A stretch of DNA of 64,000 nt from Clostridium sp. CAG:967. GTDB lineage: Bacteria; Cyanobacteriota; Vampirovibrionia; Gastranaerophilales; Gastranaerophilaceae. Positions 23,721 through 50,957 of this stretch are shown one piece after another. The notes beneath the pieces are model-generated. The model was given only the letters and a program-made list of their open reading frames with translations, did not search any database and had not been told where the DNA came from. Location: assembly GCA_000433095.1 (NCBI GenBank), contig HF991463.1, forward strand, positions 17,022-81,021, read 5' to 3'. Position 1 is the first letter of the stretch; every line of letters starts with the position of its first letter. The translations under genes and the position numbers were made by a program.

Positions 23721-23730
23721 GGGGGGGGGG
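23721..23730. repeat. Homopolymeric G10 tract, intergenic, upstream of the pilin-like gene
   Basis: ...TTAATTTC GGGGGGGGGG CAACCG... Confidence 0.9.
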
Positions 23731-23766
23731 CAACCGTTTAAGCTCCTATAAAGCGTTTTGCAAGGG

Positions 23767-23794
23767 TTGTAAAAATATAAAAATCTGTTATAAT
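23767..23794 (+). promoter_or_regulatory. Candidate sigma70-type promoter for the pilin-like gene
   Basis: TTGTAA-N16-TATAAT (23767-23772 and 23789-23794); prediction by eye only. Confidence 0.35.
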
Positions 23795-23830
23795 AGTGAT
23801 ATGTTGCATCACAATCATGGTGGGATTTTT

Positions 23831-24553
23831 ATGAAGAGAAAATTTGCTTTTACCCTTGCAGAGGACACTACGTGCGTAGCCATGTCGAAAGATTATCGTA
23901 AAGCTGCGTTTACCCTGGCAGAGGTTCTTGTCACACTCGGTATAATCGGCATTGTAGCAGCTATGACAATGCCTGTCTTAATAGCTAATCATCAGAAAAA
24001 AGAAACAGTTGCAAAGTTAAAGAAAGCCTATAGCATCCTTCAGCAGGCAACTATTTTTGCAAAACAAGAATATGGCGAGGTTAATGATTGGGATTATTCA
24101 GATCCTTATGAATTCGGGCAAAAATACTTTAAACCATATTTAAAAGTCATAGTAGACACTCAAAAAGAAATTTATTCCTGGACTGATTTAACAGGAAATT
24201 CACATTCCTATAGTACCTGGCCAACACTTATTCTGGCAGATGGAACATATATTTTTATTTATTTGGCTGATCCAGGTTATCCGGTAAATTTTCACATTGG
24301 TGTTGACATAAACGGAAAACAGAAACCTAATAAATTAGGTAGAGATTTGTTTCTTTTTACATATTATAAGAATGCTCTAAGGACATATTCTCAATATGAA
24401 ACAGGGATGCCTAATCGAAATAATGTTGTATATCCCGGAACAAGCGGGCAGTGTAATGTAGATGCGCAAGGGGGTGTAATGGGACCCGGTTCATATTGTT
24501 CTACTCTTATTGAAATGGACGGTTGGGAAATAAAAGATGATTACCCCTGGTAG
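23831..24553 (+). CDS. Prepilin-type N-terminal cleavage/methylation-domain protein (type IV pilin or pseudopilin-like); alternative starts at 23801 and 23882
   Basis: The FTLAEVLVTLGIIGIVAAM class III signal/hydrophobic segment occurs after a duplicated RK(F/A)AFTLAE leader element; GGTGG is 9 nt upstream of the ATG at 23831. Confidence 0.6.
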   Translation: MKRKFAFTLAEDTTCVAMSKDYRKAAFTLAEVLVTLGIIGIVAAMTMPVLIANHQKKETVAKLKKAYSILQQATIFAKQEYGEVNDWDYSDPYEFGQKYFKPYLKVIVDTQKEIYSWTDLTGNSHSYSTWPTLILADGTYIFIYLADPGYPVNFHIGVDINGKQKPNKLGRDLFLFTYYKNALRTYSQYETGMPNRNNVVYPGTSGQCNVDAQGGVMGPGSYCSTLIEMDGWEIKDDYPW

Positions 24554-24560
24554 TTAGTAA

Positions 24561-25139: not shown

Positions 25140-25186
25140 TGTTTATGCCCCTCTTTTATACAATATGTTTATTATATACTAAAATT

Positions 25187-25699: not shown

Positions 25700-25807
25700 T
25701 AAAATGTTTGTAATATTGTAAAGTGGCTAAATTTTAAAAAGGAGTTCACGATAAGTGAACTCCTTACAGGTTAGTTAAGGATAGGATATTATAGGTAAAA
25801 CTTGTTT

Positions 25808-26329: not shown

Positions 26330-26453
26330 TTTGTTTACTCCTACCTAAATTTTGTAACTAACCTTTGTAACCTTTTAACCTTACAATTATATAAAAACAT
26401 GCAACTCCTAAGAATTGCATGCATTTTCGTCTTTTGTTAAGTTATGTTACAAA

Positions 26454-27068: not shown

Positions 27069-27247
27069 TTTTGCTCTCCTATATAATATATATATTATAG
27101 TATAAAAATAAAATAATTGGAATAAGTATCAGTTTATTGTCTTATTTTAAAGTGTTAACAAATGTAACAAAAAATATACTTCTTGAAATCAGACTTTTTG
27201 AAAATTGTTTATATATATACCAGAACAAAAACAAGAGGACGAGAGAG

Positions 27248-27637: not shown

Positions 27638-27665
27638 GTTAGCACAATTGAATAGCAAATTACTT

Positions 27666-27691: not shown

Positions 27692-27707
27692 GTTGTAATA
27701 TAAATAT

Positions 27708-28782: not shown

Positions 28783-30696
28783 ATGGTTGATAAAACAAAT
28801 GGTATCGGACCTTTGAACCAACAATTCAGTTCTAAAGGGGTAAGGTTAGCTGCTTTGAAAAAGGAGAATGAGTTATTATTTAACTATTTCAAAAAAGCAG
28901 GTTTTGATGAAAATTCTATGATTTACTCAACAGATATTGAGAAATTAAAAAAAGAATTTGATAAAAACAAGAATGGTCTATCCGTAAAAGAAGCAAGAGC
29001 TATGGGACTTGAGGGTTCCAGAAAAGAAATTAAGAATGCAATTAAAACTCTTGATACGATTGCATCAAGTGAATTGAAAGACGATGATATTTATCCTGTA
29101 AAAGTCAGTGACAGTGAAAAGCATTTTTATACAAAGGATAATAAAATCAAATATGCTCAGGTGATTACTGACGAGGGTGTTCTTACAGAACAGTATCACA
29201 AGAACGGAAATCTTGCAGAAAAATCCGAGCACAGATATGATGCAAAAGGTAATGCTTACAGAGCTGTGTTTGAAAAATATAATGAAGAAGGACAGGTTCT
29301 TACAGGTGAATACGTTGATGAAAACGGTGTAAAAGCCGAAAGAAAATATGATTATTTTAATGGCCGTAAAAATTCAATGACTGAAACACGTGGTCAAAAT
29401 GAAACATTTATAAAATATGAAAGTTTCAACGGAAAAGAACAACCTGTTCGTGTAGTTGATACATTTAAAGGCGATCCTGACTCTGCAAAAGTGACTGAAT
29501 ACGAGTACAACGGGGGGGGGGCAGCCTTAAAGCAAACAGTTACCTATGAAGGCAAAATGATTAAAAATGATGTAACTAAAGAAGAAACAGAGTTCAGCCC
29601 TGATGGAAAAGCTCTAAAAACTACACAATTCCTAAGCGACGGAACAAAAGTTATCAATGACTTAGAAAAAGGTATAAAAGAAACAGTAATTCCTCAAGAA
29701 ATTGCTGCTGAAAATCTTACAGATATTGAAGAAGAAAAACCTGTTGAAAAAACTCCTAAGAAAGCTGCGGGAAAACTTCACCTTCCTGCGGGTTGGACAA
29801 GCGTTCCTTCAAGTTTCAGACACAGTTCTAAAATAATGGAAGCTAAAGATGCGGCAGGTGCTGTTGAAGCATTGTTGAACGCCAGAGGAATTGATGCTGG
29901 CAAAGTTGATAAAGACAAGTTAATAAGTGATGTTGCAAAATTTAATCCGAGCGTATTTGATAAAGAAGGCAAGGTTAAAAACAATGCTAAATGGGATAAA
30001 TTAGACCTTCCTGGTGATATTGCAAAAACATATAAAGCAGGAGGTGCAAAAAAAGCTAAAACAGGCGGACAAACGAAAGCTGATGATACAGGGCATGTAT
30101 TCTATGACGACAAAGGCAATCCAAAAGTAAAAGTTACAAAACTTACTGCCGAAAACGTAAGAGATGTGCTTGCGGAATTCAATAAAGCTACAGGCAATAA
30201 TAAATCACTTCCTTCTGCTATAATTTTTGATAAGGATGTTTCTGATGAAGATAAAGTTAGAGCATTAAAAATGATAAAAGATGCAGTTGATGCAAGCAAT
30301 AAAAACAGAGATTGGGTAAAACCTGGTGATTACAGATATACTGTGCCAAACGGAACTGCAGAAGACAGGTTCAGAGGTGCATCAATGTATGAGTATGTAT
30401 TTGGCAAAGGCTCTTCAGGAATGCTGAATATACCTGACAAATATAAATTCGATCCGGATGCCCAAAAACGTTTGGATGAATTACAGGAAAAATTCGGAAA
30501 ACCTCCTGTATTCCCTGCCCCTGAATTGCCTCAGGCTGAAAAGGAAGAAATTCAAGTGCCTTTTATGACAGAAAGCATGAAAAAAGAAGCTGATGCTCAA
30601 AAAGCACAAGAGAAGGCTAAAGCAGAAGCAAAGGCAGAAGCTGAAAGAAAAGCTGCTGATTTTGAGAAAAGACTTAAAGGTGATTTTACCTTGTAG
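28783..30696 (+). CDS. Hypothetical repeat protein (MORN/YwqK-like Y-x-x-NG-x repeats, K/E/A-rich C-terminal tail)
   Basis: 637 aa; repeats such as YHKNGNLAEKSEHRYDAKGNAY, EYVDENGVKAERKYDYFNGRK; contains an in-frame G10 tract (29512-29521, encodes NGGGA). Confidence 0.45.
   Translation: MVDKTNGIGPLNQQFSSKGVRLAALKKENELLFNYFKKAGFDENSMIYSTDIEKLKKEFDKNKNGLSVKEARAMGLEGSRKEIKNAIKTLDTIASSELKDDDIYPVKVSDSEKHFYTKDNKIKYAQVITDEGVLTEQYHKNGNLAEKSEHRYDAKGNAYRAVFEKYNEEGQVLTGEYVDENGVKAERKYDYFNGRKNSMTETRGQNETFIKYESFNGKEQPVRVVDTFKGDPDSAKVTEYEYNGGGAALKQTVTYEGKMIKNDVTKEETEFSPDGKALKTTQFLSDGTKVINDLEKGIKETVIPQEIAAENLTDIEEEKPVEKTPKKAAGKLHLPAGWTSVPSSFRHSSKIMEAKDAAGAVEALLNARGIDAGKVDKDKLISDVAKFNPSVFDKEGKVKNNAKWDKLDLPGDIAKTYKAGGAKKAKTGGQTKADDTGHVFYDDKGNPKVKVTKLTAENVRDVLAEFNKATGNNKSLPSAIIFDKDVSDEDKVRALKMIKDAVDASNKNRDWVKPGDYRYTVPNGTAEDRFRGASMYEYVFGKGSSGMLNIPDKYKFDPDAQKRLDELQEKFGKPPVFPAPELPQAEKEEIQVPFMTESMKKEADAQKAQEKAKAEAKAEAERKAADFEKRLKGDFTL
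29512..29521. repeat. Homopolymeric G10 tract inside the coding sequence (in frame, ON)
   Basis: TACAAC GGGGGGGGGG CAGCC. Confidence 0.9.
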
Positions 30697-30702
30697 AATA
30701 TA

Positions 30703-36759: not shown

Positions 36760-37126
36760 GATGATTGAACTATCGCCATTAGCTAAAACATGGATACTGG
36801 ATGTTGACGGTACTATTGTAAAACATAACGGTCATTTAAAAGGCGGTGATGTTTTGTTAGAAGGAGTAAAAGATTTTTACTCCAGAATATCCGATGAAGA
36901 TAAAGTCATTCTTTTAACAGCAAGAAAAGATGAATATCTTGAAGATTTAAAGATGTTTTTGCATAAAAATAATATCAGATATGATTATATTCTTACAGAT
37001 ATGCCTTTTGGCGAGAGAATTCTTGTAAATGACAGAAAACCGAGCGGTTTAAATACTGCTTATGCTATCAATAAAGATAGAGATGATAAGTTAAATATTG
37101 AATTCGCAATTAATGAGGATTTGTAG
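36740..37126 (+). CDS. Small HAD-superfamily phosphatase-like protein
   Basis: 128 aa; ILDVDGTIV (HAD motif I DxDGT), LLTARKD (motif II T), ILVNDRKP (motif IV-like D); possible later start MIELS at 36761. Confidence 0.6.
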   Translation: MREKCYKMIELSPLAKTWILDVDGTIVKHNGHLKGGDVLLEGVKDFYSRISDEDKVILLTARKDEYLEDLKMFLHKNNIRYDYILTDMPFGERILVNDRKPSGLNTAYAINKDRDDKLNIEFAINEDL

Positions 37127-37189
37127 TCGTATGTCAGTCGAGTTTTTTATAATTACAAATAGATATAGAGAATTTCAAGGAGTTTATCT

Positions 37190-39510: not shown

Positions 39511-40564
39511 AATTTCTATAATAATACCTGTTTATAATGTTGAAAAATATTTGTCAATTTGTTTGGATAGTATATTAGCTCAGAGCTTCACTGATTTTGA
39601 AGTGATATGTATAAATGACGGATCTGACGATAAATCTTTGGAAATTCTAAATGAATATAAGAATAAGGATAGTCGTATAAGAGTTATCAGTCAGGAAAAT
39701 GCAGGAGTTTCCGCTGCAAGAAACAGAGGTTTGAATGTTGCCAATGGGGAATATATTTCGTTTGTAGACCCTGATGATTGGATAGAACCTGACTGTTATG
39801 AAATTGCTTATAATAAAGCTGTAAACACAAATGCCGATATGTTGTTTTTTGGAGCAAAATATGTAACCGATGAGATAGTAGAAGAAAAAAACTTAAAAAG
39901 TCTGTATATATGTTTAGAAGAAAATGATAATTTAAATGAAATGATACATATAACACACACAATATGGAATAAACTATTTAAAAATTCATTTTTGAAAAAA
40001 CATAATATAAAGTTTGCAGAAAATCTGAAAATTGCTGAAGATGGTGTATTTAATTATTTTTGTATATTGTCAAATCCTAACATAGTTTTTCTTCCTGTAT
40101 CTTTATATAACCACAGAATTTCTAGAGATAACTCGTTAACTACTCAGATTACACCCATTCATGATATTGAAGCATGCAAATATTTAATAAATACTGAAAT
40201 ATTTGCAAATGCAGCATATAAGTATAAAGTAATGGCATTACAAAAATTTATTATGAACATGTTATGGTGGGCAAAACAGCCCAGAGCACGCTGGAATATA
40301 TTCAAAAACAGAAAAGCCATAAATGAATTTAAAAATTATGTAATTGCTAATGTAGGAATAGATATTCTTATAGAATGTTTTAATTATCAAGAATTGAAAG
40401 ATTTTTGTAACCCAAATTATTTAGCAAAATTATTTTCGGTTAAAAACACTTATTTTGATGGACAAAAAATAAAAATTGTTAATATATTAGGCATAAAAAT
40501 TAAAATTGAAATAGGTAAGAAAAATAACAGCTTAAATAAGAAAGAAAGCTTGGAGGAAGTATGA
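39503..40564 (+). CDS. Family 2 glycosyltransferase with C-terminal shared module
   Basis: MPKISIIIPVYNVEKYLSICLDSILAQSF...INDGSDDKS...FVDPDDW; C-terminal FSVKNTYFDGQKIKIVNILGIKIKIEIG. Confidence 0.85.
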   Translation: MPKISIIIPVYNVEKYLSICLDSILAQSFTDFEVICINDGSDDKSLEILNEYKNKDSRIRVISQENAGVSAARNRGLNVANGEYISFVDPDDWIEPDCYEIAYNKAVNTNADMLFFGAKYVTDEIVEEKNLKSLYICLEENDNLNEMIHITHTIWNKLFKNSFLKKHNIKFAENLKIAEDGVFNYFCILSNPNIVFLPVSLYNHRISRDNSLTTQITPIHDIEACKYLINTEIFANAAYKYKVMALQKFIMNMLWWAKQPRARWNIFKNRKAINEFKNYVIANVGIDILIECFNYQELKDFCNPNYLAKLFSVKNTYFDGQKIKIVNILGIKIKIEIGKKNNSLNKKESLEEV

Positions 40565-42921
40565 GTAAAATCTCTATAGTAGTACCTGTATATAATGTAG
40601 AAAATTATCTTTCAAGATGTTTAAACAGTTTGTTAAATCAAACCTTAAAAGATATTGATATAATATGTGTAAATGATGGTTCAACTGACAGCTCAGTAGA
40701 AATTCTTAAAGATTTTGCCAATAAAGACAGCAGAATTAAAATTATAAACAAAGAAAACGGCGGATTGTCATCTGCACGAAACTATGGCATGAAATATGTA
40801 ACAACCGATTATGTAGGTTTTGTAGATTCCGATGATTGGGTAGAGCCTGATACTTATGAACTTGCATTGGCAGCAATGGAAAAGAATAATGTTGATTTTG
40901 TTTCCTGGGGTGCAAAAATCGTTGTGGAAAATATCGATGAAGATAATATTGGTGTGGTTTTAGCAAAAGATTATCATAATATTAAAAATGTAGGTTATAA
41001 AGAAATTAATGATTCGATTCTATGCAGGACAACCGTTACTGTTTGGAATAAATTATTTAAGACTGAAATTATTAAAGATAATAATCTTACTTTTCCAAAC
41101 GGTTTAATTTATGAAGATAATGAATTTTTCTTAAAATATGCAATTTATTGTAAAAGTGCATATTATATCGACAAATATTTATATAATTATTTACAACGTT
41201 CTAATTCTATTATAGGAAATATGTGTACTAAAAAGTCTAATAAGGCTTTAGATTATATAAAAATTTATGAAAATATTTATAAATATTATGAGAGTTTCAA
41301 TTTATTAGATAAGCATAAAGATTTAATTTCAAATAAATTTAACAGTATAATGTGGAATGCTTATAGCCATTGTCAAGATAAAAAGCTTGTGAAAAAGAAA
41401 TTAAGAGAGCTTGCTAAAAGTTTGGATAATGATATTTTGCAAAATGAAAATATTCATTTAATCAAAAAAAATAAATTCCATAAAATAAATAATTTGAATG
41501 TGTCAAAAATAGATTTTGGCAATAGATTGTTGGGTTTTGAGGAAAAACGTGATAAAATCATTTTCAAACTTTTGGGAATAAAAATTTCATTAAAAAAACA
41601 AATGATTTTTTCTAAGAAAAAAGAAAACAATAAAAAGATATTCAGGATATTAGGAATAAAATTTACGTTCAAAGATAAAAAAGCTGTATTAGATAACAGA
41701 TTTAATGATTTGTACTATAAATTAAATCAACAAAAAATTGCATTTGATAAAGATATTGAAAATAATTTGGAGTTAACAAAATACTTCATGGAAGATAAAC
41801 TTTTGTCAGATGCTAAGAATAATCAATTTAAAGGCAGATATCCTGATTTTGACAATAAAATCAAAGAATATGTAAAAGATTTTGATAAATTCTATTTCTA
41901 TCCGAATGTCGGTAATATGGGCGACGGTATTATTGCCGAAGCAGAATATCAAATTTTAAATAACGGTAAATATAATTACAGCATTGTTGATAATTACTCC
42001 GGGCAATCTTTTGCACCGTGTGAAGATTATAATCTTGTATACGGCGGAGGCGGACTTTTCGTAAAATATTGGAATTATCAAAAAGTCTTAGATATTTTTA
42101 GAGATAAAAATCTCAAAAAATGTGTTGTACTGCCATCAAGTTTTTTTGAATGTGATGATGTTCTTGAATGCTTTGATGAAAGATTTACGGTATTTTGCCG
42201 TGAAGAATTCAGCTATAAATACTGTATCTCTAAAAATAACAGAGCAAAATTTATTCAGGCAGATGATATGGCATTTTCTTTAAACCTTGATTTGCAGGAA
42301 AAATACGATGTTCAAAAAATTAAAGAGAATATTCAATATTTAAGCAATAAGGATTTATCGGTTCTTGTTAATATAATTTATCCTAAAATAAAAAAGTTAT
42401 ACCAAAACGTGCAGTGTGCATTGAATGAAAAAACTGTAATAAATTCAAATAAAGTCAGAATAGGATATTTATTACGCACTGATGCAGAAAAGAAGTCAGA
42501 AAAAACAGCTTTTCCAAGTATGGATTTATCAATTTTTGCGAACAGCCCTTGCACTGATACCGGAGTTGTAGGTCTTATTTCAAGAGTATTTATTGAAACT
42601 TTAAATTCATTTGATATTATTATAACAGACAGATTACATATAGGTTTGGTTTCTTCCCTTTTGGGAAAAGAAGTTTATCTTTTAGATAATTCTTACAAAA
42701 AAGTTTCCGGAATTTATGAGTATTCAATGCAATCATACAAAAATACACATATAATATCATCAGTTAATGATATAAGTATAGATAACCTGAAAACAAAAAC
42801 TTCCAAAGCAGATCTGAATATTTTAAATAATACATTTAATATCGAAAAGTTTTTCAACTTATATCTCAGCAAACTTAAATATGAAAAAACAATTAAAAAT
42901 ACAATATGGAGTGTAAAATAA
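40561..42921 (+). CDS. Fusion: family 2 glycosyltransferase (N) + two tandem shared modules + polysaccharide pyruvyl transferase-like domain (C)
   Basis: N-terminal MSKISIVVPVYNVENYLSRCLNSLLNQT...VNDGSTDSS...FVDSDDW; linker IIFKLLGIKISLKKQ and KIFRILGIKFTFKDKK; C-terminal FYFYPNVGNMGDGIIAEAEYQ...VYGGGGLF (PS_pyruv_trans PNxGNxGD + GGG motifs). Confidence 0.7.
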   Translation: MSKISIVVPVYNVENYLSRCLNSLLNQTLKDIDIICVNDGSTDSSVEILKDFANKDSRIKIINKENGGLSSARNYGMKYVTTDYVGFVDSDDWVEPDTYELALAAMEKNNVDFVSWGAKIVVENIDEDNIGVVLAKDYHNIKNVGYKEINDSILCRTTVTVWNKLFKTEIIKDNNLTFPNGLIYEDNEFFLKYAIYCKSAYYIDKYLYNYLQRSNSIIGNMCTKKSNKALDYIKIYENIYKYYESFNLLDKHKDLISNKFNSIMWNAYSHCQDKKLVKKKLRELAKSLDNDILQNENIHLIKKNKFHKINNLNVSKIDFGNRLLGFEEKRDKIIFKLLGIKISLKKQMIFSKKKENNKKIFRILGIKFTFKDKKAVLDNRFNDLYYKLNQQKIAFDKDIENNLELTKYFMEDKLLSDAKNNQFKGRYPDFDNKIKEYVKDFDKFYFYPNVGNMGDGIIAEAEYQILNNGKYNYSIVDNYSGQSFAPCEDYNLVYGGGGLFVKYWNYQKVLDIFRDKNLKKCVVLPSSFFECDDVLECFDERFTVFCREEFSYKYCISKNNRAKFIQADDMAFSLNLDLQEKYDVQKIKENIQYLSNKDLSVLVNIIYPKIKKLYQNVQCALNEKTVINSNKVRIGYLLRTDAEKKSEKTAFPSMDLSIFANSPCTDTGVVGLISRVFIETLNSFDIIITDRLHIGLVSSLLGKEVYLLDNSYKKVSGIYEYSMQSYKNTHIISSVNDISIDNLKTKTSKADLNILNNTFNIEKFFNLYLSKLKYEKTIKNTIWSVK

Positions 42922-45059
42922 TGGAAAAAGATAAAATTAAACGATTTATAGATTGTTATGTGCCTGTAACTACTTGCAATTTAAGATGTCATTATTGCTA
43001 TATTACACAGCAGAGAAAGTTCGATGCTTGTTTGCCCGAGTTCAAATATTCTGCTGACCATATTGCAAAAGCTTTGTCTAAAGAAAGACTTGGAGGTGTT
43101 TGCTGTATAAACTTTTGTGGCGGAGGAGAAACTTTATTGCCTCCTGAAATGATTAGCATTATTAGAAAGTTATTGGAAGAAGGTCATTATATAATGGTCG
43201 TTACTAATGGTACTGTTTCCAAAAGATTTGACGAAATTGCCCAAATGCCTAAGGAACTCTTAGAAAGACTTTTCTTCAAATTTTCTTTCCATTATTTAGA
43301 ACTTAAAAGAATTAATATGATGGATAAATTCTTTGATAATATTAGAAAAGTAAGAGATGCAGGTGCTTCTTTCACTCTTGAAATTACTCCGAGTGATGAG
43401 TTAATTCCATATATTGATGAAGTCAAAGAGGTTGCTTTAAAAAATGTTAAAGCCCTTCCTCATATTACGGTTGCACGTGATAATACACAATACGAACTGC
43501 CGATTTTAACATCTCATTCAAAAGCAGAGTATAAAAATATCTGGGGACAATTTAAATCAGGATTGTTCAATTATAAATATTCAGTATTTAACAAAAAACG
43601 AAAAGAATTTTGTTATGCAGGTGATTGGACTTTCTATCTGAATATAGGTACAGGAGAAATGAAACAATGCTATAAAGGTGATATTCTCCAAAATATTTAT
43701 GAAAATGTAGATGAACCTATCCGCTTTAGAGTTGTAGGCAACAACTGCAGGGAATCTCATTGTTACAATGCCCACGCATTTTTAACTTTCGGTGCAATTC
43801 CGGAACTTAAATCTCCTACTTATACTGAAATGAGAGATAGGGAATGTACTGACGGAACCCACTGGTGCGGAGAAAAAGTCAGAGATTTCTTCTCGCAAAA
43901 ATTAGTTAACAGTAACAAGACATTAAGTTTGAAACAGAAAAGAAAAATTAACAAAATGTACAGAAAAAATAAATCTGTTAAATTATTGGAACAAGTATTT
44001 TCAGTTAAAAATGATTGTCCTAATAATAATGAAAAATCTCATAAAATTGTTACTGTTATGGGAGCACGAATAAAATTTAAAGTAAAGAATAAAAAATTCT
44101 TGCAAAATCAAATTTGTTCTTTAAAACAGGAGATTAATACATTAAAAGAAAACCAAAAAAACATAAGATTATATCTTGAGCTTGAAAGACTTGACAGACA
44201 AATAAAAGAAATGGCTCCTAAGGACCAGATGATATTTGTTTGTATCAACGGTATAGGCGATACTATGTTGTATGCTTCTTACTGGAAAGAACTTGAAGCC
44301 AAATACGGTACAAAAATATTCTGGGTGGTTGTTAAATCTCATGAAGTAATCATGAAAATGTACGGTATTACAAATTATATGGTTCTTGAAACTATGAGCG
44401 TTCAAAAACAAGGGACATTCTCAGAAGCAATCAATATGACAACCAAACCAGTCAAGGGTATTCCTTTCTACGCTCACTGGACATATAACAAAACTACACG
44501 TGTTAAAGAAGATTATTTCTTGGATTTTGTAAGAAATTCAATGGATTTAAAAGGCTTACCTTTAAACCACCCTGTTTGGTATCCTGAAATAAATGATGAT
44601 TTAAAAGCTAAAATTGCTTGTATAAAAGATTTAAACAAAACTGTATTAATTTCACCTGATGCAAGATGGTTACCGCTTAATGATGTAAATTTGTGGAATT
44701 CGTTAATAAAAGAACTCAAGGCAGAAGGTTTCGAAATTATAGTTAACGACTTTTTACATAAGTTAAAATTAAACGGAGCCGTCTGCTGTTCTGATTTTAC
44801 AACAGAAGAACTTGTAGCTTTATCACACAATTGTTATGCGACAGTTTCTCCAAGAAGCGGATTTACTGATATAATGCATGAACTCGGTGAAAAACTGTTT
44901 GTTATTTATTCAAATTGTGATTGGAAAAAATTGTTTACTTTAAACAGAATTTGTTCTACATCTGATGTAAATGAATATGTTAATACTCCTGATTTCAATG
45001 TAAAACAAGTCGTAAAAGATATTAAAAAAATATCTTGTAAAGAGGCAGCTAAAGTATGA
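42906..45059 (+). CDS. Fusion: radical SAM domain (N) + shared module + coiled coil + GT9 (heptosyltransferase)-like domain (C)
   Basis: CNLRCHYC (CX3CX2C) and GGGETLL (GGE SAM motif); mid FSVKNDCPNNNEKSHKIVTVMGARIKFKV; C-terminal MIFVCINGIGDTMLYASYW ... VLISPDARWLPLNDVNLWNSLIKELKAEGFEIIVN resembles the GT9 fold. Confidence 0.6.
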   Translation: MECKIMEKDKIKRFIDCYVPVTTCNLRCHYCYITQQRKFDACLPEFKYSADHIAKALSKERLGGVCCINFCGGGETLLPPEMISIIRKLLEEGHYIMVVTNGTVSKRFDEIAQMPKELLERLFFKFSFHYLELKRINMMDKFFDNIRKVRDAGASFTLEITPSDELIPYIDEVKEVALKNVKALPHITVARDNTQYELPILTSHSKAEYKNIWGQFKSGLFNYKYSVFNKKRKEFCYAGDWTFYLNIGTGEMKQCYKGDILQNIYENVDEPIRFRVVGNNCRESHCYNAHAFLTFGAIPELKSPTYTEMRDRECTDGTHWCGEKVRDFFSQKLVNSNKTLSLKQKRKINKMYRKNKSVKLLEQVFSVKNDCPNNNEKSHKIVTVMGARIKFKVKNKKFLQNQICSLKQEINTLKENQKNIRLYLELERLDRQIKEMAPKDQMIFVCINGIGDTMLYASYWKELEAKYGTKIFWVVVKSHEVIMKMYGITNYMVLETMSVQKQGTFSEAINMTTKPVKGIPFYAHWTYNKTTRVKEDYFLDFVRNSMDLKGLPLNHPVWYPEINDDLKAKIACIKDLNKTVLISPDARWLPLNDVNLWNSLIKELKAEGFEIIVNDFLHKLKLNGAVCCSDFTTEELVALSHNCYATVSPRSGFTDIMHELGEKLFVIYSNCDWKKLFTLNRICSTSDVNEYVNTPDFNVKQVVKDIKKISCKEAAKV

Positions 45060-45649
45060 TTTTAACTTATCATAAAGTTTCATTTATCAAAAATGATAAA
45101 ATTACCGTTAATGTTTGGAATTTTATCATGCAGATGTATGCAATAAGAAAAAAAATTGTTGTATATCTCGACGATTATGACTTGAATGATAATAATCAGG
45201 TTGTTTTAAGGTTTGACGACGGTTACAAAAGTGTATTAAAATATGCTGTACCTGTTCTTAAATTCTTTGGTTATCCTTTTGAAGTTTTTATTGTTGAAGA
45301 TTTCTTTAACAGAGGAGAAAAAGGTGATAAAAATTTTTTAAATAAAAAAGATTTGGAGAAGATAATAAAATCAGGAGGTCGACTTCAATATCATACAAAA
45401 TCCCATCCGGATTTAAGTATCATTGAAGATGAAGAAATCTTAAAAACAGAATTGATTTGTCCTGAATATATTAAGCAACTGGATAAAAACGGCTTTAAAT
45501 TCTTGGCATATCCTTTTTGGAAATATAATTCCAAATCAATTGAATATGTTCAAAAATTATATAATGGAGCTTGTTCGGGTAACGGCTTTGCTGAAAATAA
45601 TAAATATTCTATGGATGGAATAAGGGTAGAGGCAAATACTAAAATATAA
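45056..45649 (+). CDS. Polysaccharide deacetylase (CE4 / NodB-homology) family protein
   Basis: 197 aa; VLRFDDGYKS (NodB motif 1 DDG), HTKSHPDL (His-His metal motif). Confidence 0.65.
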   Translation: MILTYHKVSFIKNDKITVNVWNFIMQMYAIRKKIVVYLDDYDLNDNNQVVLRFDDGYKSVLKYAVPVLKFFGYPFEVFIVEDFFNRGEKGDKNFLNKKDLEKIIKSGGRLQYHTKSHPDLSIIEDEEILKTELICPEYIKQLDKNGFKFLAYPFWKYNSKSIEYVQKLYNGACSGNGFAENNKYSMDGIRVEANTKI

Positions 45650-45659
45650 AGGAGAAATT

Positions 45660-46865
45660 ATGTCTAAATTGTTGGAAAATATATTATCTGTGAAAAATCA
45701 TGGAGATCATAAAACTTTTACTTTAATGGGAGTAAAGTTTAGATTTAGAAATGAAAAAGTTATACAAAAAAGAATTCTTTCAGGTTTATATGAAACCAGA
45801 GATAATATTGCTAAACTAAGCAGCAAGGTTGTATGCGTTAATAATGAAGAAAGAAAGAAATGGGTAATCGAAAATATTGGCAACAAAGACTTTTATGAAC
45901 AAGAATTGCTTATATACAATACTTTTGAACAGATGAAAGCAAGAAAACTTTATCCTGTTTTCAGAGATAGAATTTCAAGAGGTAAAATGATTTTGTCTAT
46001 GAAAGTTTTTCAAGAGCGTTATCCTGAATATAACGGGTTCTTATTTACAGATGTCCAGGGATTAGAAAATGATTTTAAGGTTTATAACAAAGATGATATT
46101 AAGAGTATGAACCCGGATACTGATATGGCAATTCTTGCATATAATCAGGATTATGTTGCTCTGGATTTAATCGACGAGCTTAATAAATATAATATAAAAT
46201 ATTATGCGGCTATACAGTCCTTTCCTCATGCAAGATATTTTCATACGGATGAAAATGCCTTAAAAGTTTTAGATGAAGAATCAATGTCTGACAGCTGGCA
46301 TTTCTGTCCGGTAGATTTTGAAAATATATTTCAGGCTATTAAGGCAAGCAATACACTCGAAGGTGATTACGTTGAAATAGGTACTTTTAAAGGAGATTCA
46401 GCTTCTGCTGCCTTAAATTATATGAAGAAAACAGGTATAAATAAAAGAGCATATTTTATTGATACATACGAAGGTTTTAATTATGAACAAGCTTTTAAAT
46501 CCAATGATACTTTTTGGAAAAAGGGGCATACAAATACTTCTTATGACAATGTTAAAGAAAGACTGTCAAAATATGATAATGCAAATGTCGTTAAAGGTAA
46601 TATAATTTCTGATGAGTTGCCGGCTGAGATTGAGAAAATTTGTGTTGCAAATATTGATGTTGACCTGTATGAAGCAGTAAAAGCAGCATTATATAAGGTT
46701 AAAGATAAAGTAGTGAAAAATGGTATAATTATTGCTGAAGACTACGGGCACACTCCGACTTTAATCGGCGGACAAAAAGCGGTAGATGAATTTATTGAAG
46801 AAAATAAAAACGATTTCATTCCTCTTTATATGAACAGCGGACAAATGTTTTTAATTAAAAAATAA
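45660..46865 (+). CDS. TylF/MycF-family class I SAM-dependent O-methyltransferase with N-terminal shared module
   Basis: N-terminal ILSVKNHGDHKTFTLMGVKFRFRN; C-terminal GDYVEIGTFKGDSA (SAM GxG) and NIDVDLYEAVKAAL (TylF-family hID.DLYEsT motif). Confidence 0.7.
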   Translation: MSKLLENILSVKNHGDHKTFTLMGVKFRFRNEKVIQKRILSGLYETRDNIAKLSSKVVCVNNEERKKWVIENIGNKDFYEQELLIYNTFEQMKARKLYPVFRDRISRGKMILSMKVFQERYPEYNGFLFTDVQGLENDFKVYNKDDIKSMNPDTDMAILAYNQDYVALDLIDELNKYNIKYYAAIQSFPHARYFHTDENALKVLDEESMSDSWHFCPVDFENIFQAIKASNTLEGDYVEIGTFKGDSASAALNYMKKTGINKRAYFIDTYEGFNYEQAFKSNDTFWKKGHTNTSYDNVKERLSKYDNANVVKGNIISDELPAEIEKICVANIDVDLYEAVKAALYKVKDKVVKNGIIIAEDYGHTPTLIGGQKAVDEFIEENKNDFIPLYMNSGQMFLIKK

Positions 46866-46882
46866 TAGGAAATTTATAACAA

Positions 46883-49750
46883 ATGCAAAAAGAGCTTTTA
46901 AAGAATATATTTAATAAAATAAAAGAAAACTCCAATATTAATTTATCACTTATTCAACAAAATTCTTTGAAAATTAACCTTGAACGCCAGGTAGGTTATA
47001 TTTGTAAAGATAGGCATAGTGAATACAAAAAATATTGGCTGACTTTGGCATTTTCTGATGCTCAAAAATACCGTTTAAAAAAGACTGTAGATAATATAAC
47101 AGATAAATCATTAGTTTGGTCTAAATATTTTGAATTTATTATGCCTGTTTCATACGGTGAATGTGATAATGTCTATTATGTCTTATATCCTTTCCTAGAG
47201 AATACATCTAGAGGTCAATATGGTGATGTCAAGATTTATGAAGATATTTTATATGATATTTATGAAAAAGAATCTTATACTGTGAAACTTACTCCGGAAA
47301 AGATTAATGAAATTATGAATAGTATTGTAGAAGAAAGATGTCCTGATAATACTATAAGCCGGGAAAATTTCATTAATAGTGAAGCTTTTATTGAATATAG
47401 AGAACTTTTAAGCAGTTACGATGAGATAGAAATGGTTCGTTCTCATTGCGATTTTAAACCCCAAAACATAATAAATTGTCAAAATAAAAAATATTTAATA
47501 GGATTTGAATTCGGCGGAATTGATTTGCCGGTCGGATTTGATTTATTCTGCCTCAGACGTGGCACTGTTGAGAAAAATTATTCTGATGTTCCGTATAAAG
47601 AACTTCATGAGATATTTTGCAAATTCCATCATGTGGGAGATGGTGTATCATGGTTAAAATATTGCAATCCGATTGTAAAACTTGATAAGGGACGTCAATT
47701 TATTAAAATTCTTGAAAATGGAAAATTCACAACTATTGATATTAAGCAAAATTTTCCTATTTATAAACTCGATTTGTTAATTGATTTTCAAAATATAGAA
47801 ATTTCTTCAGCAGCTGTATTTAAGCTGGTTAAACTGATTTATAAAAAATATAATAATAACTATATAATAAGATTTCAAAATTGTCCTTTCTGGTTCGAAA
47901 GGCTTACACAGGATGAGGAAAACGTGCTTTCGTTTTCGGGTGTAATTAATAAAGACTATGAAGAACCTAAAAATTTTATTGATTATTTAAAATCTACACA
48001 GGCTTATGTAAATTATTCTAAAATTATGCCTTATGTTAAACCATACTGGTTTAGAGCACTGTTAGCAGTTCTCATTTGTATCCCTATAGGTTCTTTGGAT
48101 GCTGTAATTGCTTTATCTTTAAAACCTTATATGGATTTGGTTATGGTTGACAAATCAGTTCAATCGCCAATGTATATTCCTTTTGCAATTGTAGCTTTTA
48201 CATCTGTTCAGGGATTTTTAAATTATTTTGCGACTTATATGAACACCTGGGTTGGAACAAAAATTACAAACGACCTGAAGTTTGATTTGTATAAAAAAAT
48301 GCTTACCCTGGAAACAGCTTATTTTGATAAGAAGAAATCCGGAGATATTGTTTTTAGATTTAATAACGATGCAGATGCTGCCTGTGCAGGACTGTTAGAT
48401 AATTTAAAAACTTTTGTTTCAAGATTATTTTCTTCTCTTTCGCTTGTATGTGTATTATTTTATAATTCATGGCAGCTTGCATTGATTGCTGTATTTGTTC
48501 TTGGATGCGCATTTTTACCGTTGACCAAAATCCGTAAGAGAATTAAGGATGTTCTTGATAAATCTATTTCAATTACAGCCTCAATTATTACTTCGTATAA
48601 TGAAAGTTTTGCAGGAAACAAAACTATCGCTTCTTATAATCTTGATAAGATTCAGGAAACAAAATTTAAAAATATTTTAAATTCATTATTTTCTTTAAAA
48701 ATAAAACTTATTCAACGAACTTCATGGTTGTCACCTATGATGCACGTTATAGTATCTGTAGGTATCGGGATAGCTATAGCTTACGGAAGTCATTTAATTT
48801 TGACAAATCAAATTACAAGCGGTAATTTTGTTTCATTTATTACTGCTTTAATTATGTTGTATACTCCTATTAAAAATCTCGGCAATAACTTTAATGCTGT
48901 TCAATTTTCTTTCCTGGCTATTGAAAGAGTATTTAGTATACTTGAGTCAGAACCTAAGATTAAAGATAGTGAAAATGCCGTTGTATTAAATAATATTGGA
49001 ACAATAGAATTTAAAGACGTTAATTTTGAATATGTTAGAAATAAACCTGTGTTAAAAAATATAAATTTAAAAGTAACAGCAGGAGAAACTATTGCTCTGG
49101 TTGGGAACTCCGGAGGTGGAAAATCAACTATAGTAAGTCTTATTCCAAGATTTTATGATGTTGTATCAGGTGGAATATTAATTGACGGCATAGATATCAG
49201 AAATCTGACACTTAAATCTTTAAGACAAAATATTGCTATTGTTTTTCAGGACAATTTCTTGTTTTCCGGAACCATAAGAGATAATGTTATGCTGGGGAAT
49301 GAAAATGCGACTGAAAAGGATGTTGAGAAAGCCATTAAAATGGCATATCTCGATGATTTTATAGCAGGGTTGTCAAATGGTTTGGATACGCAAATAGGCG
49401 AACGTGGAATTCTTTTATCAGGCGGGCAAAAGCAAAGAGTTGCAATTGCACGTGCTTTTCTTAAGAATGCTCCAATTGTAATTTTAGATGAGGCAACTTC
49501 TGCTTTGGACAATAAAGCAGAGGCAATTGTTCAGAAGGCTATTGACAATTTAATGCAGGATAAAACAGTATTTGTAATCGCTCACAGACTTTCTACAATC
49601 CAGAATGCTGATAAAATTGTAGTTATTAATGAAGGTGAAATCGCTGAAACCGGAAACCATGAAGAACTTCTTAAGATTGATAACGGCGCATACAAAATGC
49701 TTTATGAAATGCAATTTAAAAAGCAGGCAGCAGAAGTATTAGCAAAGTAA
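46883..49750 (+). CDS. Fusion: APH/choline-kinase-like domain (N, ~370 aa) + MsbA/PglK-type ABC exporter (six-TM domain + NBD)
   Basis: HCDFKPQNII (HxDxxxxN) and LIGFEFGG in the N-domain; TM region; Walker A GNSGGGKST, signature LSGGQKQRVAIARAF, Walker B ILDEATSALD, H-loop AHRLST. Confidence 0.8.
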   Translation: MQKELLKNIFNKIKENSNINLSLIQQNSLKINLERQVGYICKDRHSEYKKYWLTLAFSDAQKYRLKKTVDNITDKSLVWSKYFEFIMPVSYGECDNVYYVLYPFLENTSRGQYGDVKIYEDILYDIYEKESYTVKLTPEKINEIMNSIVEERCPDNTISRENFINSEAFIEYRELLSSYDEIEMVRSHCDFKPQNIINCQNKKYLIGFEFGGIDLPVGFDLFCLRRGTVEKNYSDVPYKELHEIFCKFHHVGDGVSWLKYCNPIVKLDKGRQFIKILENGKFTTIDIKQNFPIYKLDLLIDFQNIEISSAAVFKLVKLIYKKYNNNYIIRFQNCPFWFERLTQDEENVLSFSGVINKDYEEPKNFIDYLKSTQAYVNYSKIMPYVKPYWFRALLAVLICIPIGSLDAVIALSLKPYMDLVMVDKSVQSPMYIPFAIVAFTSVQGFLNYFATYMNTWVGTKITNDLKFDLYKKMLTLETAYFDKKKSGDIVFRFNNDADAACAGLLDNLKTFVSRLFSSLSLVCVLFYNSWQLALIAVFVLGCAFLPLTKIRKRIKDVLDKSISITASIITSYNESFAGNKTIASYNLDKIQETKFKNILNSLFSLKIKLIQRTSWLSPMMHVIVSVGIGIAIAYGSHLILTNQITSGNFVSFITALIMLYTPIKNLGNNFNAVQFSFLAIERVFSILESEPKIKDSENAVVLNNIGTIEFKDVNFEYVRNKPVLKNINLKVTAGETIALVGNSGGGKSTIVSLIPRFYDVVSGGILIDGIDIRNLTLKSLRQNIAIVFQDNFLFSGTIRDNVMLGNENATEKDVEKAIKMAYLDDFIAGLSNGLDTQIGERGILLSGGQKQRVAIARAFLKNAPIVILDEATSALDNKAEAIVQKAIDNLMQDKTVFVIAHRLSTIQNADKIVVINEGEIAETGNHEELLKIDNGAYKMLYEMQFKKQAAEVLAK

Positions 49751-49771
49751 TGAAATAGGGGAGCTGACACA

Positions 49772-50957
49772 TTGGAAAATATTAAACAATCAATAAAAAT
49801 AAAAAATATTGAGTTTTTACGATTTATTTTTTCTATATTTATTGTATATTTTCATCTTGTTGCAGGTTATTTATATATAAAGTTAGGTGATTCCGTTGAG
49901 TTATATAATAAATTACATCACCACTGCAACGGGCAATTATGTGTAGAATACTTTTTTGTAATTGCAGGTTTCTTTTTAATTACAAAAACTAATTTTAATA
50001 CTGATATAATAGACTTTGCAAAGAAAAAAATTATTAGATTATGGCCTGTTCTGGCTTTTACGATATGTTTATACTGGCTTTTATCTTTATTTACTCCAAT
50101 AGAATTTTGCAAGTACTCTAATCTTCTTACTATTTTATTAATTGATAATATAGGAATAAATACGGCTTTTGGCAACATGATTTCAACATGGTTTGTATCT
50201 GCATTATTTTGGTGTACTCTTCTGTATTTTTATATATTAAAAAACGTGTCTTCAAAACATGTAAATTTTTTAATAGTATCGCTGGTAATTTTGGCATTAT
50301 CTGCAAAAATTCATTCAAACGGAATGTCTTCTAAAGATGTATTTGTTCTTAATAATATAGGTTTATTAAGAGGAATTTATTGTATTGGTTTGGGATATTT
50401 TATAGGTAAGATATTCCTGAAAACTCGGGGGGGGGGGGGTTTTTTTGCTTTTGATAATATTTGGAAAAATTGGGGGGCGGTTTTCAGCTTTAGACAATAT
50501 ATGGAAAAAATTAATATATACGGGTATAGAGGGTTATCTTTTGATAACGGTTGTTTACAATACTGTATGTTATAAGTCTAAATCGCCTGATATTTATTTG
50601 TTTTATCTCATTACTTTTTGTTTATTGTTCTGGCTTTTTGTTAATCAAAAAGGCTATTTGAGTAAGTTATTTAATCAAAATTTTTCTGTATTTTTAGGCA
50701 AATATTCTTATTCAATATTTATAATACATCCTGTTGTACTTAACCTTTTCAGAGAATATATATGGAAAATACATCCGAATTTTGTTATAAGTTACCCGAT
50801 AATTAATTTGTTTGTGCCGCTTGTTTGTTCTGTTTTGGCAGGAATTGTTGTTTATCATCTGGTAGAAAAACCTGCATATAATTACCTTAAATCAAAATGG
50901 TTTCCCGTTAAAACAAATGCTGATAATTTGAATAATATTATACTTTCTTCGCATTAA
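49772..50957 (+). CDS. Acyltransferase family 3 (OatA/OafA-like) membrane O-acyltransferase, split by a +1 frameshift at a G13/T7 tract (candidate phase-variable gene, currently OFF)
   Basis: N-terminal part 49772-50575 (NIEFLRFIFSIFIVYFHL, an acyltransferase_3 start); C-terminal part in the +1 frame 50445-50957 (YSIFIIHPVV..., ends AYNYLK); removing one G joins the frames. Confidence 0.7.
50427..50439. repeat. Homopolymeric G13 tract immediately followed by T7, inside the acyltransferase gene
   Basis: AAACTC GGGGGGGGGGGGG TTTTTTT GC. Confidence 0.9.

What the first reader, a model, noticed from the sequence alone, without database searches (positions are those of the whole stretch)
23721..50439. 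Three G tracts of 10 or more within 27 kb of an AT-rich genome, each in a surface-structure gene
G10 at 23721 (pilin-like gene 5' region), G10 at 29512 (repeat protein, in frame) and G13 at 50427 (O-acyltransferase, out of frame) are the only long homopolymeric G runs I found in 64 kb, apart from a G7 at 57419 inside a membrane-protein repeat and a G6 at 50474. All sit in genes for exposed or variable structures. This distribution matches the contingency-locus strategy known from Campylobacter jejuni, which also has an AT-rich genome with poly-G tracts concentrated in flagellar glycosylation, LOS and capsule genes. It is less expected for the lineage suggested by the housekeeping genes.
Basis: partly seen in the sequence, partly recalled or inferred. 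Interest (0 to 1): 0.55.

Follow-up and report, generated by a model that had tools for sequence, protein, structure and literature searches.

The report
Slippery poly-G switches in gut Melainabacteria
Three runs of ten or more G in this uncultured gut relative of cyanobacteria are real mutation-prone on/off switches, a trick known from Campylobacter and Neisseria, and nearly every member of its large pilin-like gene family carries one near the gene start.

Summary
The three G tracts are present as described; about 0.002 would be expected by chance. The window comes from 'Clostridium sp. CAG:967', which is really a Candidatus Gastranaerophilales (Melainabacteria) gut bacterium.

Independent assemblies of the same species carry different tract lengths that switch the reading frame:
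- Acyltransferase (site 3): G10 gives a split gene on 44 contigs. G11 gives an intact 381-aa gene on at least 28. G9 and G12 are rare.
- 637-aa protein (site 2): G10 is intact on more than 100 contigs. G9 is on 11 and G11 on 9. DNA of six contigs each was checked.
- Pilin-like gene (site 1): G10 almost always. This ends a 13-codon upstream ORF. G11 would fuse that ORF to the pilin-like ORF, and was seen once, in a probable long-read contig.

The window's G13 plus G6 is an assembly-specific 40-nt duplication around a G10/G11 tract.

Across other Gastranaerophilales, 21 of 24 G/C tracts of 9 or more lie 7-29 codons after an RBS+ATG upstream of DUF6613 pilin-like genes. Most are one step from ON.

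This is homopolymer phase variation: a known mechanism in a new lineage and gene family. Not shown here are within-population switching, mismatch-repair status and a surface location for the 637-aa protein.

The parts
23579..23607 (+). Promoter-like site P1 (TTGAAA-17-TATAAT with TG) upstream of the leader mini-ORF
   Evidence: 11 of 12 consensus matches. This is a consensus match only.
23700..23741 (+). Leader mini-ORF. It has an RBS (aaaggag), ATG at 23700, seven codons and then the G10 tract. At G10 it reads MKRFINFGGGATV and stops at TAA 23739-23741.
   Evidence: Sequence; in-silico length variants. G9 gives 16 aa, G10 gives 13 aa, and G8 or G11 give a 283/284-aa fusion to the pilin-like ORF.
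23721..23730 (+). Site 1: G10 tract. It is the switch between the leader ORF and the pilin-like ORF frame, and is one step from ON (ON = G11).
   Evidence: G10 in every short-read assembly and every allele examined. G11 was seen only in L039. The predicted 284-aa fusion is on 1 contig, against 51 for the 250-aa call.
23767..23794 (+). Promoter-like site P2 (TTGTAA-16-TATAAT with TG), lying between the tract and the pilin-like start codons
   Evidence: 10 of 12 matches. The hexamers are conserved and the spacer varies across alleles and species. If active, it would bypass the switch.
23801..24553 (+). Type IV pilin-like gene (N_methyl + DUF6613). Possible starts are 23801 and 23831 (MKRKFAFTLAE...). 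The frame stays open upstream back through the tract.
   Evidence: N_methyl scores 25.3 bits against a cutoff of 21.2, with a weak DUF6613 hit; the pilin frame is open for 64 codons upstream of the second AFTLAE motif, with the nearest stop 14 nt before the tract end.
23846..23924 (+). 60-nt direct duplication of the AFTLAE-coding segment (23846-23864 and 23906-23924), with a palindrome-containing spacer
   Evidence: Similar units, 1-4 copies, occur in the leaders of family members.
28783..30696 (+). 637-aa protein of unknown function. It has an N-terminal EF-hand-like motif, YD/RHS-like repeats and no signal peptide. It carries site 2.
   Evidence: no Pfam family; homologues come only from uncultured sources, and PF05593 (RHS repeat) is precomputed for two of them (P0088, P0179).
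29512..29521 (+). Site 2: G10 tract, in frame (NGGGAA). G9 and G11 truncate the protein at 248 and 255 aa.
   Evidence: One search gives the predictions; the G9 product is on 11 contigs, the G11 product on 9, and the G10 product on 51 plus about 60 contigs with allelic 637-aa forms. One search is the DNA check: G11 in L043-48 and G9 in L049-54. The ortholog in a second species also has G10 (L021:15646) and a G9-type truncated form (P0020).
35254..49750 (+). Glycan biosynthesis and export cluster upstream of the acyltransferase. It includes a LicC/APH-like fusion, several GT2 enzymes, a pyruvyl transferase, a radical SAM enzyme, a deacetylase, a TylF-like methyltransferase and a fused ABC exporter.
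49772..50957 (+). Acyltransferase_3 (O-acyltransferase-type) gene, split in the window into 49772-50575 and 50445-50957. It is an intact 381 aa when the tract is G11.
   Evidence: PF01757 hits on both halves. L011 and L012 have G11 and an intact gene; L010 and L013 have G10 and a split gene.
50427..50439 (+). Site 3: the tract reads G13 in the window and G9-G12 in all other assemblies. ON = G11 (or G8).
   Evidence: the G10 product is on 44 contigs. G11 products are on 9+4+7+4+3+1. G9 is on 2 and a G12-type product on 3.
50432..50509 (+). Degenerate 40-nt x2 duplication next to site 3, probably a misassembly in this record
   Evidence: TRF: period 40, 2 copies, 81% matches; absent from six other assemblies; its 267-aa product is on 1 contig only.

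Best explanation
The three tracts are simple-sequence contingency loci. During replication a run of 9-12 G (or C) gains or loses a base by slipped-strand mispairing, which shifts the reading frame and turns a gene on or off, heritably and reversibly.

- Site 3: G11 gives an intact O-acyltransferase at the end of a glycan-export operon, and G10 splits it.
- Site 2: G10 gives a full 637-aa protein, and G9 or G11 truncate it.
- Site 1: the tract sits seven codons into a short upstream ORF. At G10 that ORF stops. At G11 it runs on, in frame, into the type IV pilin-like gene.

Site 1 belongs to an order-wide arrangement. In Gastranaerophilales, most DUF6613 pilin-like paralogues carry a G or C tract in the leader, 7-29 codons after an RBS+ATG, and most sit one step from ON.

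Shown: tract conservation, position, frame logic, and length differences between natural populations. Inferred: that the changes arise by slippage at high rate within a population, that they change the cell surface, and that selection maintains them. For site 1 in this species the effect may be partial, because a promoter-like site and an internal start lie downstream of the tract.
For: Non-random occurrence: 3 tracts against about 0.002 expected.

The same tracts recur in many independent assemblies, with diverged flanks.

Length polymorphism coincides exactly with frame switching:
- Site 3: G10 split versus G11 intact.
- Exact-sequence look-ups of my predicted frameshift products found them in other assemblies. 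Site 2: G9 on 11 contigs and G11 on 9. Site 3: G10 on 44, G11 on at least 28, G9 on 2. Site 1: the G11 fusion on 1.
- DNA confirmation of site 2: G11 in 6 contigs and G9 in 6, while site 1 stays G10 on the same contigs.

Order-wide pattern:
- 21 of 24 G/C tracts of 9 or more, in 321 kb from this and related genomes, lie in an RBS+ATG leader upstream of a pilin-like gene.
- In 15 of 18 tract-linked pilin-like genes the pilin frame stays open back through the tract, over 32-106 codons in the long cases. The background stop frequency is 0.062 per codon.
- ON forms were observed in L024, L025, L032:9919, L040 and L041.
- Predicted ON fusions for L021 and L027 exist on 3 and 6 other contigs, while truncated calls dominate.
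- 19 of 150 diverse family representatives carry GGG or PPP in the leader.

The site 2 tract is kept uninterrupted in two species, although glycine codons could vary.
Against: - No read-level data, so heterogeneity within one population and reversibility are not shown.
- Differences between assemblies could in part be fixed strain differences or homopolymer consensus errors.
- The only site 1 ON case (L039) is a Flye-style contig that also differs from the window at A7/A8 and T6/T7 runs.
- None of six other site 1 alleles has an ON product on record.
- A promoter-like site and an RBS+ATG lie between the site 1 tract and the pilin-like gene.
- In L036 (two copies) the leader and tract are uncoupled from the pilin ORF, and in L035 a stop follows the tract. 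The frame-fusion model therefore does not cover every case.
- Site 2's protein is not demonstrably surface-exposed.
- Mismatch-repair status is unknown.
Confidence: 0.75

Rival explanations
1. Programmed recoding. The prevailing 'OFF' length (G10/C10 with ON = 11) is the functional genotype, and RNA polymerase slippage or ribosomal frameshifting on the run produces a fixed fraction of full-length product. Control would then be non-genetic.
For: Site 1 is G10 in every short-read assembly and allele. 10 of the 12 OFF pilin-leader tracts need exactly +1. Long homopolymers are known slippage sites (own knowledge).
Against: DNA-level ON alleles exist for the same genes. Sites 2 and 3 vary at the DNA level in both directions. 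Tracts with ON = 10 also occur (L024, L028, L032:9919). No stimulatory RNA structure was looked for.
Confidence: 0.1
2. Transcriptional or DNA-structural element. The tract acts through spacing or binding upstream of the pilin promoter, as the poly-C tract does in Bordetella fim promoters, or as a G-rich structural element. The upstream mini-ORF would be incidental.
For: At site 1 the tract ends 37 nt upstream of the -35 hexamer of a conserved promoter-like site. In L036 the tract and mini-ORF sit about 160 nt upstream of an independently promoted and translated pilin-like gene with no frame continuity. 17 of 24 tracts share C-G(n)-C flanks.
Against: In 15 of 18 cases the pilin frame is open through the tract. 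In several genes no start codon lies between the tract and the FTLAE motif (L028, L031, L032:3192, L034:9024). Sites 2 and 3 are deep inside ORFs. An RBS+ATG at a fixed short distance upstream is nearly universal.
Confidence: 0.1
3. Sequencing or assembly artefact. Poly-G is a known artefact of two-colour Illumina chemistry and an error hotspot.
For: The window's G13 + duplication is unique to one record. L016 has N10+C44 junk at site 2. L009-type scaffolds have N gaps at site 3, and several contigs start or end at or near the tracts (L014, L044, L046).
Against: Identical tract positions, flanked by normal coding sequence, appear in dozens of assemblies from different studies and assemblers. 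They also appear in different species with diverged flanks. The tracts encode GGG or PPP in frame in the ON forms.
Confidence: 0.03
4. Neutral mutational hotspots or gene decay. The tracts arose by chance and simply inactivate dispensable genes, with no selection for switching.
For: OFF states dominate for the pilin-like genes. The site 2 tract is recent and absent from close relatives: P0012 has S-NG and others have NTDG.
Against: Tract position is regular, 7-29 codons after the start. Tracts stay uninterrupted across species, and the frame stays open downstream of OFF tracts. Both ON and OFF occur for the same gene. Long tracts are strongly concentrated in one gene family.
Confidence: 0.05

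Closest known systems
Neisseria pilC1/pilC2 phase variation (homopolymeric G tract within the reading frame; Jonsson et al. 1991, as cited in PMC5953494)
   Same: A run of 9-20 G near the 5' end of a type IV pilus-related gene. +/-1 slippage switches translation on and off (PMC5953494). By my own knowledge, the pilC tract lies in the signal-peptide coding region, as the Gastranaerophilales tracts lie in the prepilin leader.
   Different: PilC is a tip or adhesin protein, not a pilin-like subunit. There are one or two genes per genome, rather than a large paralogous family in which each gene has its own tract. The lineage is an uncultured gut commensal rather than a proteobacterial pathogen. 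G or C may be on the coding strand. Some copies have a downstream promoter and start that may bypass the switch.
Campylobacter jejuni poly-G contingency loci (capsule, LOS, flagellar glycosylation)
   Same: An AT-rich genome with G/C tracts of about 8-13 concentrated in glycan-modification and surface genes. ON/OFF by frameshift, with a modal tract length one step from the alternative state.
   Different: Not a close relative. Absence of mismatch repair, which underlies the high rates in C. jejuni (own knowledge), could not be tested here. The dominant target class here is pilin-like genes.
Haemophilus influenzae oafA and other phase-variable O-acetyltransferases of the Acyl_transf_3 family
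   Same: An integral-membrane acyltransferase_3 that decorates a surface glycan is switched by a repeat inside its ORF. This corresponds to site 3.
   Different: By my own knowledge, oafA uses a tetranucleotide repeat. Here the repeat is a G10/G11 homopolymer in mid-gene. The substrate glycan is unknown.
Bordetella pertussis fim2/fim3 poly-C promoter tracts
   Same: A homopolymeric C/G tract upstream of a fimbrial subunit gene. It is a possible analogue for site 1 and for the uncoupled L036 copies.
   Different: By my own knowledge, the Bordetella tract lies within the promoter, between the activator site and the -10 element. Here it lies inside a translated mini-ORF 37 nt or more upstream of the -35 hexamer, and usually in frame with the gene.

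Membership tests
Simple-sequence (homopolymeric) contingency locus / phase-variable gene | Uninterrupted homopolymer of about 8 nt or more, within an ORF or its 5' control region | tested here: met
   G10, G10 and G13 (really G10/G11). Searches give positions relative to the ORFs.
Simple-sequence (homopolymeric) contingency locus / phase-variable gene | A +/-1 change in tract length switches between a full-length and a truncated or uncoupled product | tested here: met
   In-silico variants. Observed intact versus split genes.
Simple-sequence (homopolymeric) contingency locus / phase-variable gene | Tract-length polymorphism among natural populations of one species | tested here: met
   Site 2: G9, G10 and G11. 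Site 3: G9 to G12. Site 1: G10, with a single G11 of doubtful quality.
Simple-sequence (homopolymeric) contingency locus / phase-variable gene | High-frequency, reversible switching within a clonal population | not testable with these tools
   No reads and no cultures. Assembly breaks and N gaps at the tracts are compatible with within-sample heterogeneity but do not prove it.
Simple-sequence (homopolymeric) contingency locus / phase-variable gene | Concentration of tracts in surface or variable-structure genes, rather than random scatter | tested here: inconclusive
   21 of 24 tracts in 321 kb lie in pilin-like leaders. However, the sample was centred on pilin-like genes, no whole genome was scanned, and site 2's protein is of unknown location.
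Simple-sequence (homopolymeric) contingency locus / phase-variable gene | Conservation of the uninterrupted tract across related species | tested here: met
   Site 1-type and site 2 tracts are present in a second species (L021, 78% identical pilin-like protein). Leader tracts occur across the order.
Type IV pilin-like protein (prepilin-type N-terminal cleavage/methylation domain) | N-terminal (G/A)FTLxE motif followed by a hydrophobic helix of about 20 residues; Pfam N_methyl above its cutoff | tested here: met
   25.3 bits against a cutoff of 21.2. The sequence is KAAFTLAEVLVTLGIIGIVAAMTMPVLI.
Type IV pilin-like protein (prepilin-type N-terminal cleavage/methylation domain) | Processing by a prepilin peptidase and assembly by pilus or T2SS machinery | not testable with these tools
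   No machinery genes lie in the window. pilA/B/C/D/T genes are reported for a Gastranaerophilus genome (PMC5877343).
Acyltransferase 3 family (O-acyltransferase type) | Pfam PF01757 above its gathering score over a polytopic membrane protein of about 330-400 aa | tested here: met
   the N-terminal half scores 74.7 bits (cutoff 31) and the C-terminal half 27.2 bits. The intact 381-aa form is seen in L011 and L012.
Campylobacter/Helicobacter-type hypermutability background | Absence of MutS1/MutL mismatch repair | not tested
Literature searches gave nothing usable.

The most novel reading that the evidence does not exclude
Gastranaerophilales may run a family-wide combinatorial surface-variation system. 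The DUF6613 pilin-like family is very large (14,617 clusters at 50% identity with E <= 0.001), and most of the sampled paralogues are each gated by their own C-G(n)-C homopolymer in the prepilin leader. Most are held one slip from ON, so each cell would display a shifting subset of pilins. This would be the first described phase-variation system in the cyanobacterial sister lineage, and one of the largest single-family phasomes. It would bear on immune or phage evasion by an uncultured human gut commensal.
Probability: 0.4. Interest if true: 0.72.

Novelty: new member of a known kind. Interest (0 to 1): 0.6.

Why it matters
Homopolymer phase variation is a textbook strategy of host-adapted pathogens such as Campylobacter, Helicobacter, Neisseria and Haemophilus. 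Finding it as a systematic, conserved feature of an uncultured, non-photosynthetic sister group of Cyanobacteria that lives in the human gut has three consequences.

1. It suggests that these commensals face similar fluctuating selection on pili and surface glycans, from antibody, phage or niche switching.
2. It explains why many of their pilin-like and glycan genes look like pseudogenes or are mis-started in MAG annotations. It also explains why assemblies break at these points.
3. It gives a concrete, testable marker for population dynamics in metagenomes, namely tract length at defined loci.

It also warns that gene-content and pseudogene calls for this lineage depend on single-base homopolymer lengths.

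Tried and rejected
- I considered a shared functional motif (uptake or recombination site), because site 1 alleles and site 2 both read G10-CAGCCTT. I dropped this. Other species' tracts have different 3' sequences, and only the C-G(n)-C flanks recur.
- I considered a DGR/IMH-like or inverton/shufflon element, because the pilin-like cassettes vary in number (one or two copies in L003, L007, L008) and a palindrome recurs. No reverse transcriptase or recombinase turned up among the genes annotated around site 1, and I did not pursue it.
- My first hand translation called the L031 and L032:3192 C10 alleles ON. The script showed they are OFF, with ON = C11.
No JGI metagenome loci were obtained.
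- Exact-sequence look-ups for ON products of six further site 1 alleles and eight other species' genes found nothing. Because the look-up requires identity over the whole protein, these negatives are weak.
- Literature searches for Melainabacteria or Gastranaerophilales together with phase variation, homopolymeric, pilin, mismatch repair or mutS returned nothing relevant. The library lacks most subscription journals.
- MutS/MutL presence could not be assessed.

Full report
**Observation**

A direct scan of the window finds G10 at 23721-23730, G10 at 29512-29521 and G13 at 50427-50439. The only other G/C runs of 6 or more are C6 at 6309, G6 at 50472 and G7 at 57419. Window GC is 32.9%. About 0.002 G runs of 10 or more are expected in 64 kb under either an iid or a first-order Markov model. 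The run-length distribution is discontinuous: 50, 6, 1 and 1 runs for G4 to G7, then nothing until G10.

**Source organism**

Exact-protein look-ups show the same genes on more than 100 contigs from human-gut-type metagenome assemblies. The window's own proteins are deposited as 'Clostridium sp. CAG:967' (CCY62337, CCY62344, CCY62359, CCY62360). Related loci in the species-representative genome collection are almost all titled Candidatus Gastranaerophilales. That order belongs to the non-photosynthetic Melainabacteria/Vampirovibrionia, the sister group of Cyanobacteria. The window also holds EF-Tu, NusA, UvrA, EF-Ts, flagellar rod genes and a large glycan cluster.

**Site 3: acyltransferase**

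The gene at 49772-50957 belongs to the Acyl_transf_3 family. It is split in the window, and it ends a glycan biosynthesis and export cluster that runs from 35254 to 49750.

Other assemblies of the same species show these states:

| Assembly | State at the tract | Gene |
|---|---|---|
| L010, L013 | G10 | split (226 + 138 aa) |
| L011, L012 | G11 | intact, 381 aa |
| L009-type scaffolds | run of N | not readable |
| L014 | contig ends in the tract | not readable |

The window instead reads G13 + 32 nt + G6. This is a degenerate 40-nt x2 copy of the downstream sequence.

Exact look-up of the predicted products gives these contig counts:
- G10 product: 44 contigs.
- G11 products: 9+4+7+4+3+1 contigs.
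- G9 product: 2 contigs.
- A G12-type product: 3 contigs.
- The window's 267-aa form: 1 contig, its own record.

The tract is therefore real and polymorphic, with ON = G11. The '13' and the neighbouring G6 are best read as a local misassembly.

**Site 2: 637-aa protein**

G10 lies in frame, coding NGGGAA. Unbiased retrieval through the neighbouring DUF3326 gene gave G10 in 5 of 5 readable assemblies. One further scaffold had N10+C44 junk at that exact position.

I predicted the G9 and G11 products (248 and 255 aa). Both exist exactly, on 11 and 9 contigs, against 51 contigs for this 637-aa allele plus about 60 for allelic 637-aa forms. Their DNA confirms the lengths: G11 in L043-L048 and G9 in L049-L054, with site 1 unchanged at G10 wherever the same contig covers it.

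The ortholog in a second species also has G10 (L021:15646) and a G9-type truncated form (P0020).

The protein has no Pfam hit and no signal peptide. Its homologues are all unnamed and from uncultured sources. It has an EF-hand-like N-terminal motif and YD/RHS-like repeats. The GGG sits in a YxYNxxG loop that reads S-NG or NTDG in relatives, so the tract is a recent acquisition. 'Surface structure' is not established for this gene.

**Site 1: pilin-like gene**

The G10 is not inside the annotated pilin-like ORF. The layout is as follows.
- A strong promoter-like site lies at 23579-23607.
- It is followed by an RBS, an ATG at 23700, seven codons and then the tract.
- At G10 the ORF ends after 13 codons, at TAA 23739.
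- At G11 (or G8) it continues for 284 (or 283) codons straight into the N_methyl + DUF6613 pilin-like ORF.

The pilin frame is open from the FTLAE motif back through the tract.

Every short-read assembly and every allele examined has G10 at site 1, including both copies in the strains that carry two tandem pilin-like genes. The predicted G11 fusion exists on one contig only, against 51 for the G10-type call. That contig (L039) has a Flye-style name and differs from the window at A7/A8 and T6/T7 runs as well, so a long-read homopolymer error cannot be excluded. ON products for six other alleles were not found.

A second promoter-like site (23767-23794) has conserved hexamers and a variable spacer across alleles. 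It and an RBS+ATG (23831, MKRKFAFTLAE) lie between the tract and the pilin-like gene. The gene may therefore still be expressed at G10. In this species the switch is the least certain of the three.

**The wider pattern**

Searching the genome collection with the pilin-like protein returned 18 loci from diverse Gastranaerophilales, at 33-78% identity. Together with the window and two further loci this makes 321 kb, which holds 24 G/C tracts of 9 or more. Length 10 is modal: 4, 14, 3, 2 and 1 tracts for lengths 9 to 13.

Of the 24 tracts, 21 lie 7-29 codons after an ATG (with a recognisable RBS wherever the upstream sequence is on the contig), on the coding strand, upstream of a pilin-like gene. 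The base on that strand is G or C.

For 15 of 18 tract-linked pilin-like genes the pilin frame is open back through the tract. In the long cases this spans 32-106 codons, against a background stop frequency of 0.062 per codon. Exactly one tract length within +/-1 fuses the upstream start to the gene.
- ON as assembled: L024 (G10), L025 (G11), L032:9919 (C10), L040 (G12), L041/L042 (C11).
- One step from ON: the window, L021, L023, L026, L027, L028, L030, L031, L032:3192, L034 (two tracts) and L036:7514.

In several genes (L028, L031, L032:3192, L034:9024) no alternative start lies between the tract and the FTLAE motif. There the tract controls translation directly.

Predicted ON fusions for L021 and L027 exist exactly on 3 and 6 other contigs, while truncated calls dominate on tens of contigs. 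For L032:9919 the ON form is on 2 contigs and a 201-aa truncated call on 46.

The family is very large: 14,617 clusters at 50% identity with E <= 0.001. Of its 150 top representatives, 19 show GGG or PPP in the leader. DNA checked for two of these showed homopolymer coding.

There are exceptions. In L036 (two copies) the mini-ORF and tract are followed by about 160 nt of non-coding DNA and an independently promoted gene. In L035 a TAA follows the tract.

**Mechanism**

The best-supported explanation is classical slipped-strand phase variation. Length changes of +/-1 in a G/C run shift the frame.

Shown:
- Conservation and position of the tracts.
- The frame logic.
- The existence of both states as the majority allele in different natural populations, for sites 2 and 3 and for several pilin-like genes.

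Inferred:
- A high rate of switching and its reversibility within a population.
- Phenotypic consequences.
- Selective maintenance.

Rivals:
- Programmed transcriptional or translational slippage on a fixed G10. This cannot be excluded for site 1 and may co-occur.
- A promoter-spacing or DNA-structural role. This is relevant to site 1 and L036.
- Artefact. This is refuted except for the G13 detail.
- Neutral decay. This is unlikely given the positional regularity and the preserved downstream frames.

**Comparison with known systems**

The closest analogue for the pilin-like genes is Neisseria pilC, which has a homopolymeric G tract of 9-20 in the reading frame (PMC5953494). By my own knowledge, that tract lies in the signal-peptide region. 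For the acyltransferase the closest analogues are phase-variable O-acetyltransferases such as H. influenzae oafA (own knowledge). For the overall genome strategy it is C. jejuni.

These are functional analogies, not homology. The defining sequence-level features of a contingency locus are met. Within-population switching and mismatch-repair status were not testable.

I found no paper linking Melainabacteria or Gastranaerophilales with homopolymer phase variation. One paper reports type IV pilus genes in a Gastranaerophilus genome (PMC5877343).

**Verdict**

The mechanism is known. The lineage and the family-wide placement in prepilin leaders appear to be new. I rate it a new member of a known kind, with interest 0.6.

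Noticed in passing
window 23721, 29512, 50427; L021-L041 tracts: On the G strand, 17 of 24 long tracts are flanked by C on both sides (C-G(n)-C). About 3% would be expected from composition, by my own estimate from base frequencies. Some of the tracts are homologous to each other. No explanation.
   Followed up: partly
window 23846-23924: A 60-nt direct duplication of the AFTLAE-coding segment, with a spacer containing the palindrome ACGTGCGTAGC. Other family members carry 1-4 such 'AFTLAEGATHVA..RK' units in long N-terminal leaders (P0210, P0250, P0272, P0279). The same palindrome precedes the tract in L008, L020 and L021. It may be a recombination scar or a regulatory element.
   Followed up: partly
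L003, L007, L008, L051 versus window 23700-24553: Strains of the same species carry either one or two tandem pilin-like genes here (231 + 230 aa versus 230 or 250 aa). Each copy is preceded by its own G10, and two different leader types occur (MKRFINF... and MEKLIEKAV.../MEKFSKKAC...). This is cassette-like copy-number variation.
   Followed up: partly
window 50432-50509: A degenerate 40-nt x2 duplication next to the acyltransferase tract. It is unique to this record and is probably a misassembly caused by poor reads after the poly-G.
   Followed up: yes
L016:5806-5859; L009:~7548; L014 end; L044-L053 starts: Assemblies often break, gap (runs of N) or collect poly-C junk at or close to these tracts. 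This is compatible with within-sample heterogeneity or with poly-G read problems, and it is a caution for MAG gene calls.
   Followed up: partly
L049:10434-12664, L054:7224-9454: A Mu-like transposase (rve + Mu-transpos_C) plus an AAA_22 gene lies downstream of the GerE-family gene in some strains but not in the window.
   Followed up: no
window 35254-36759: An NTP_transferase + APH (kinase) fusion, reminiscent of LicC/LicA, sits at the head of the glycan cluster. It may indicate phosphocholine-type or similar decoration.
   Followed up: no
It is too short to class with the three long tracts.
   Followed up: partly
window 2731-4170: Flagellar rod genes (FlgF/FlgG-like) are present, consistent with reports of flagella in gut Melainabacteria.
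   Followed up: no
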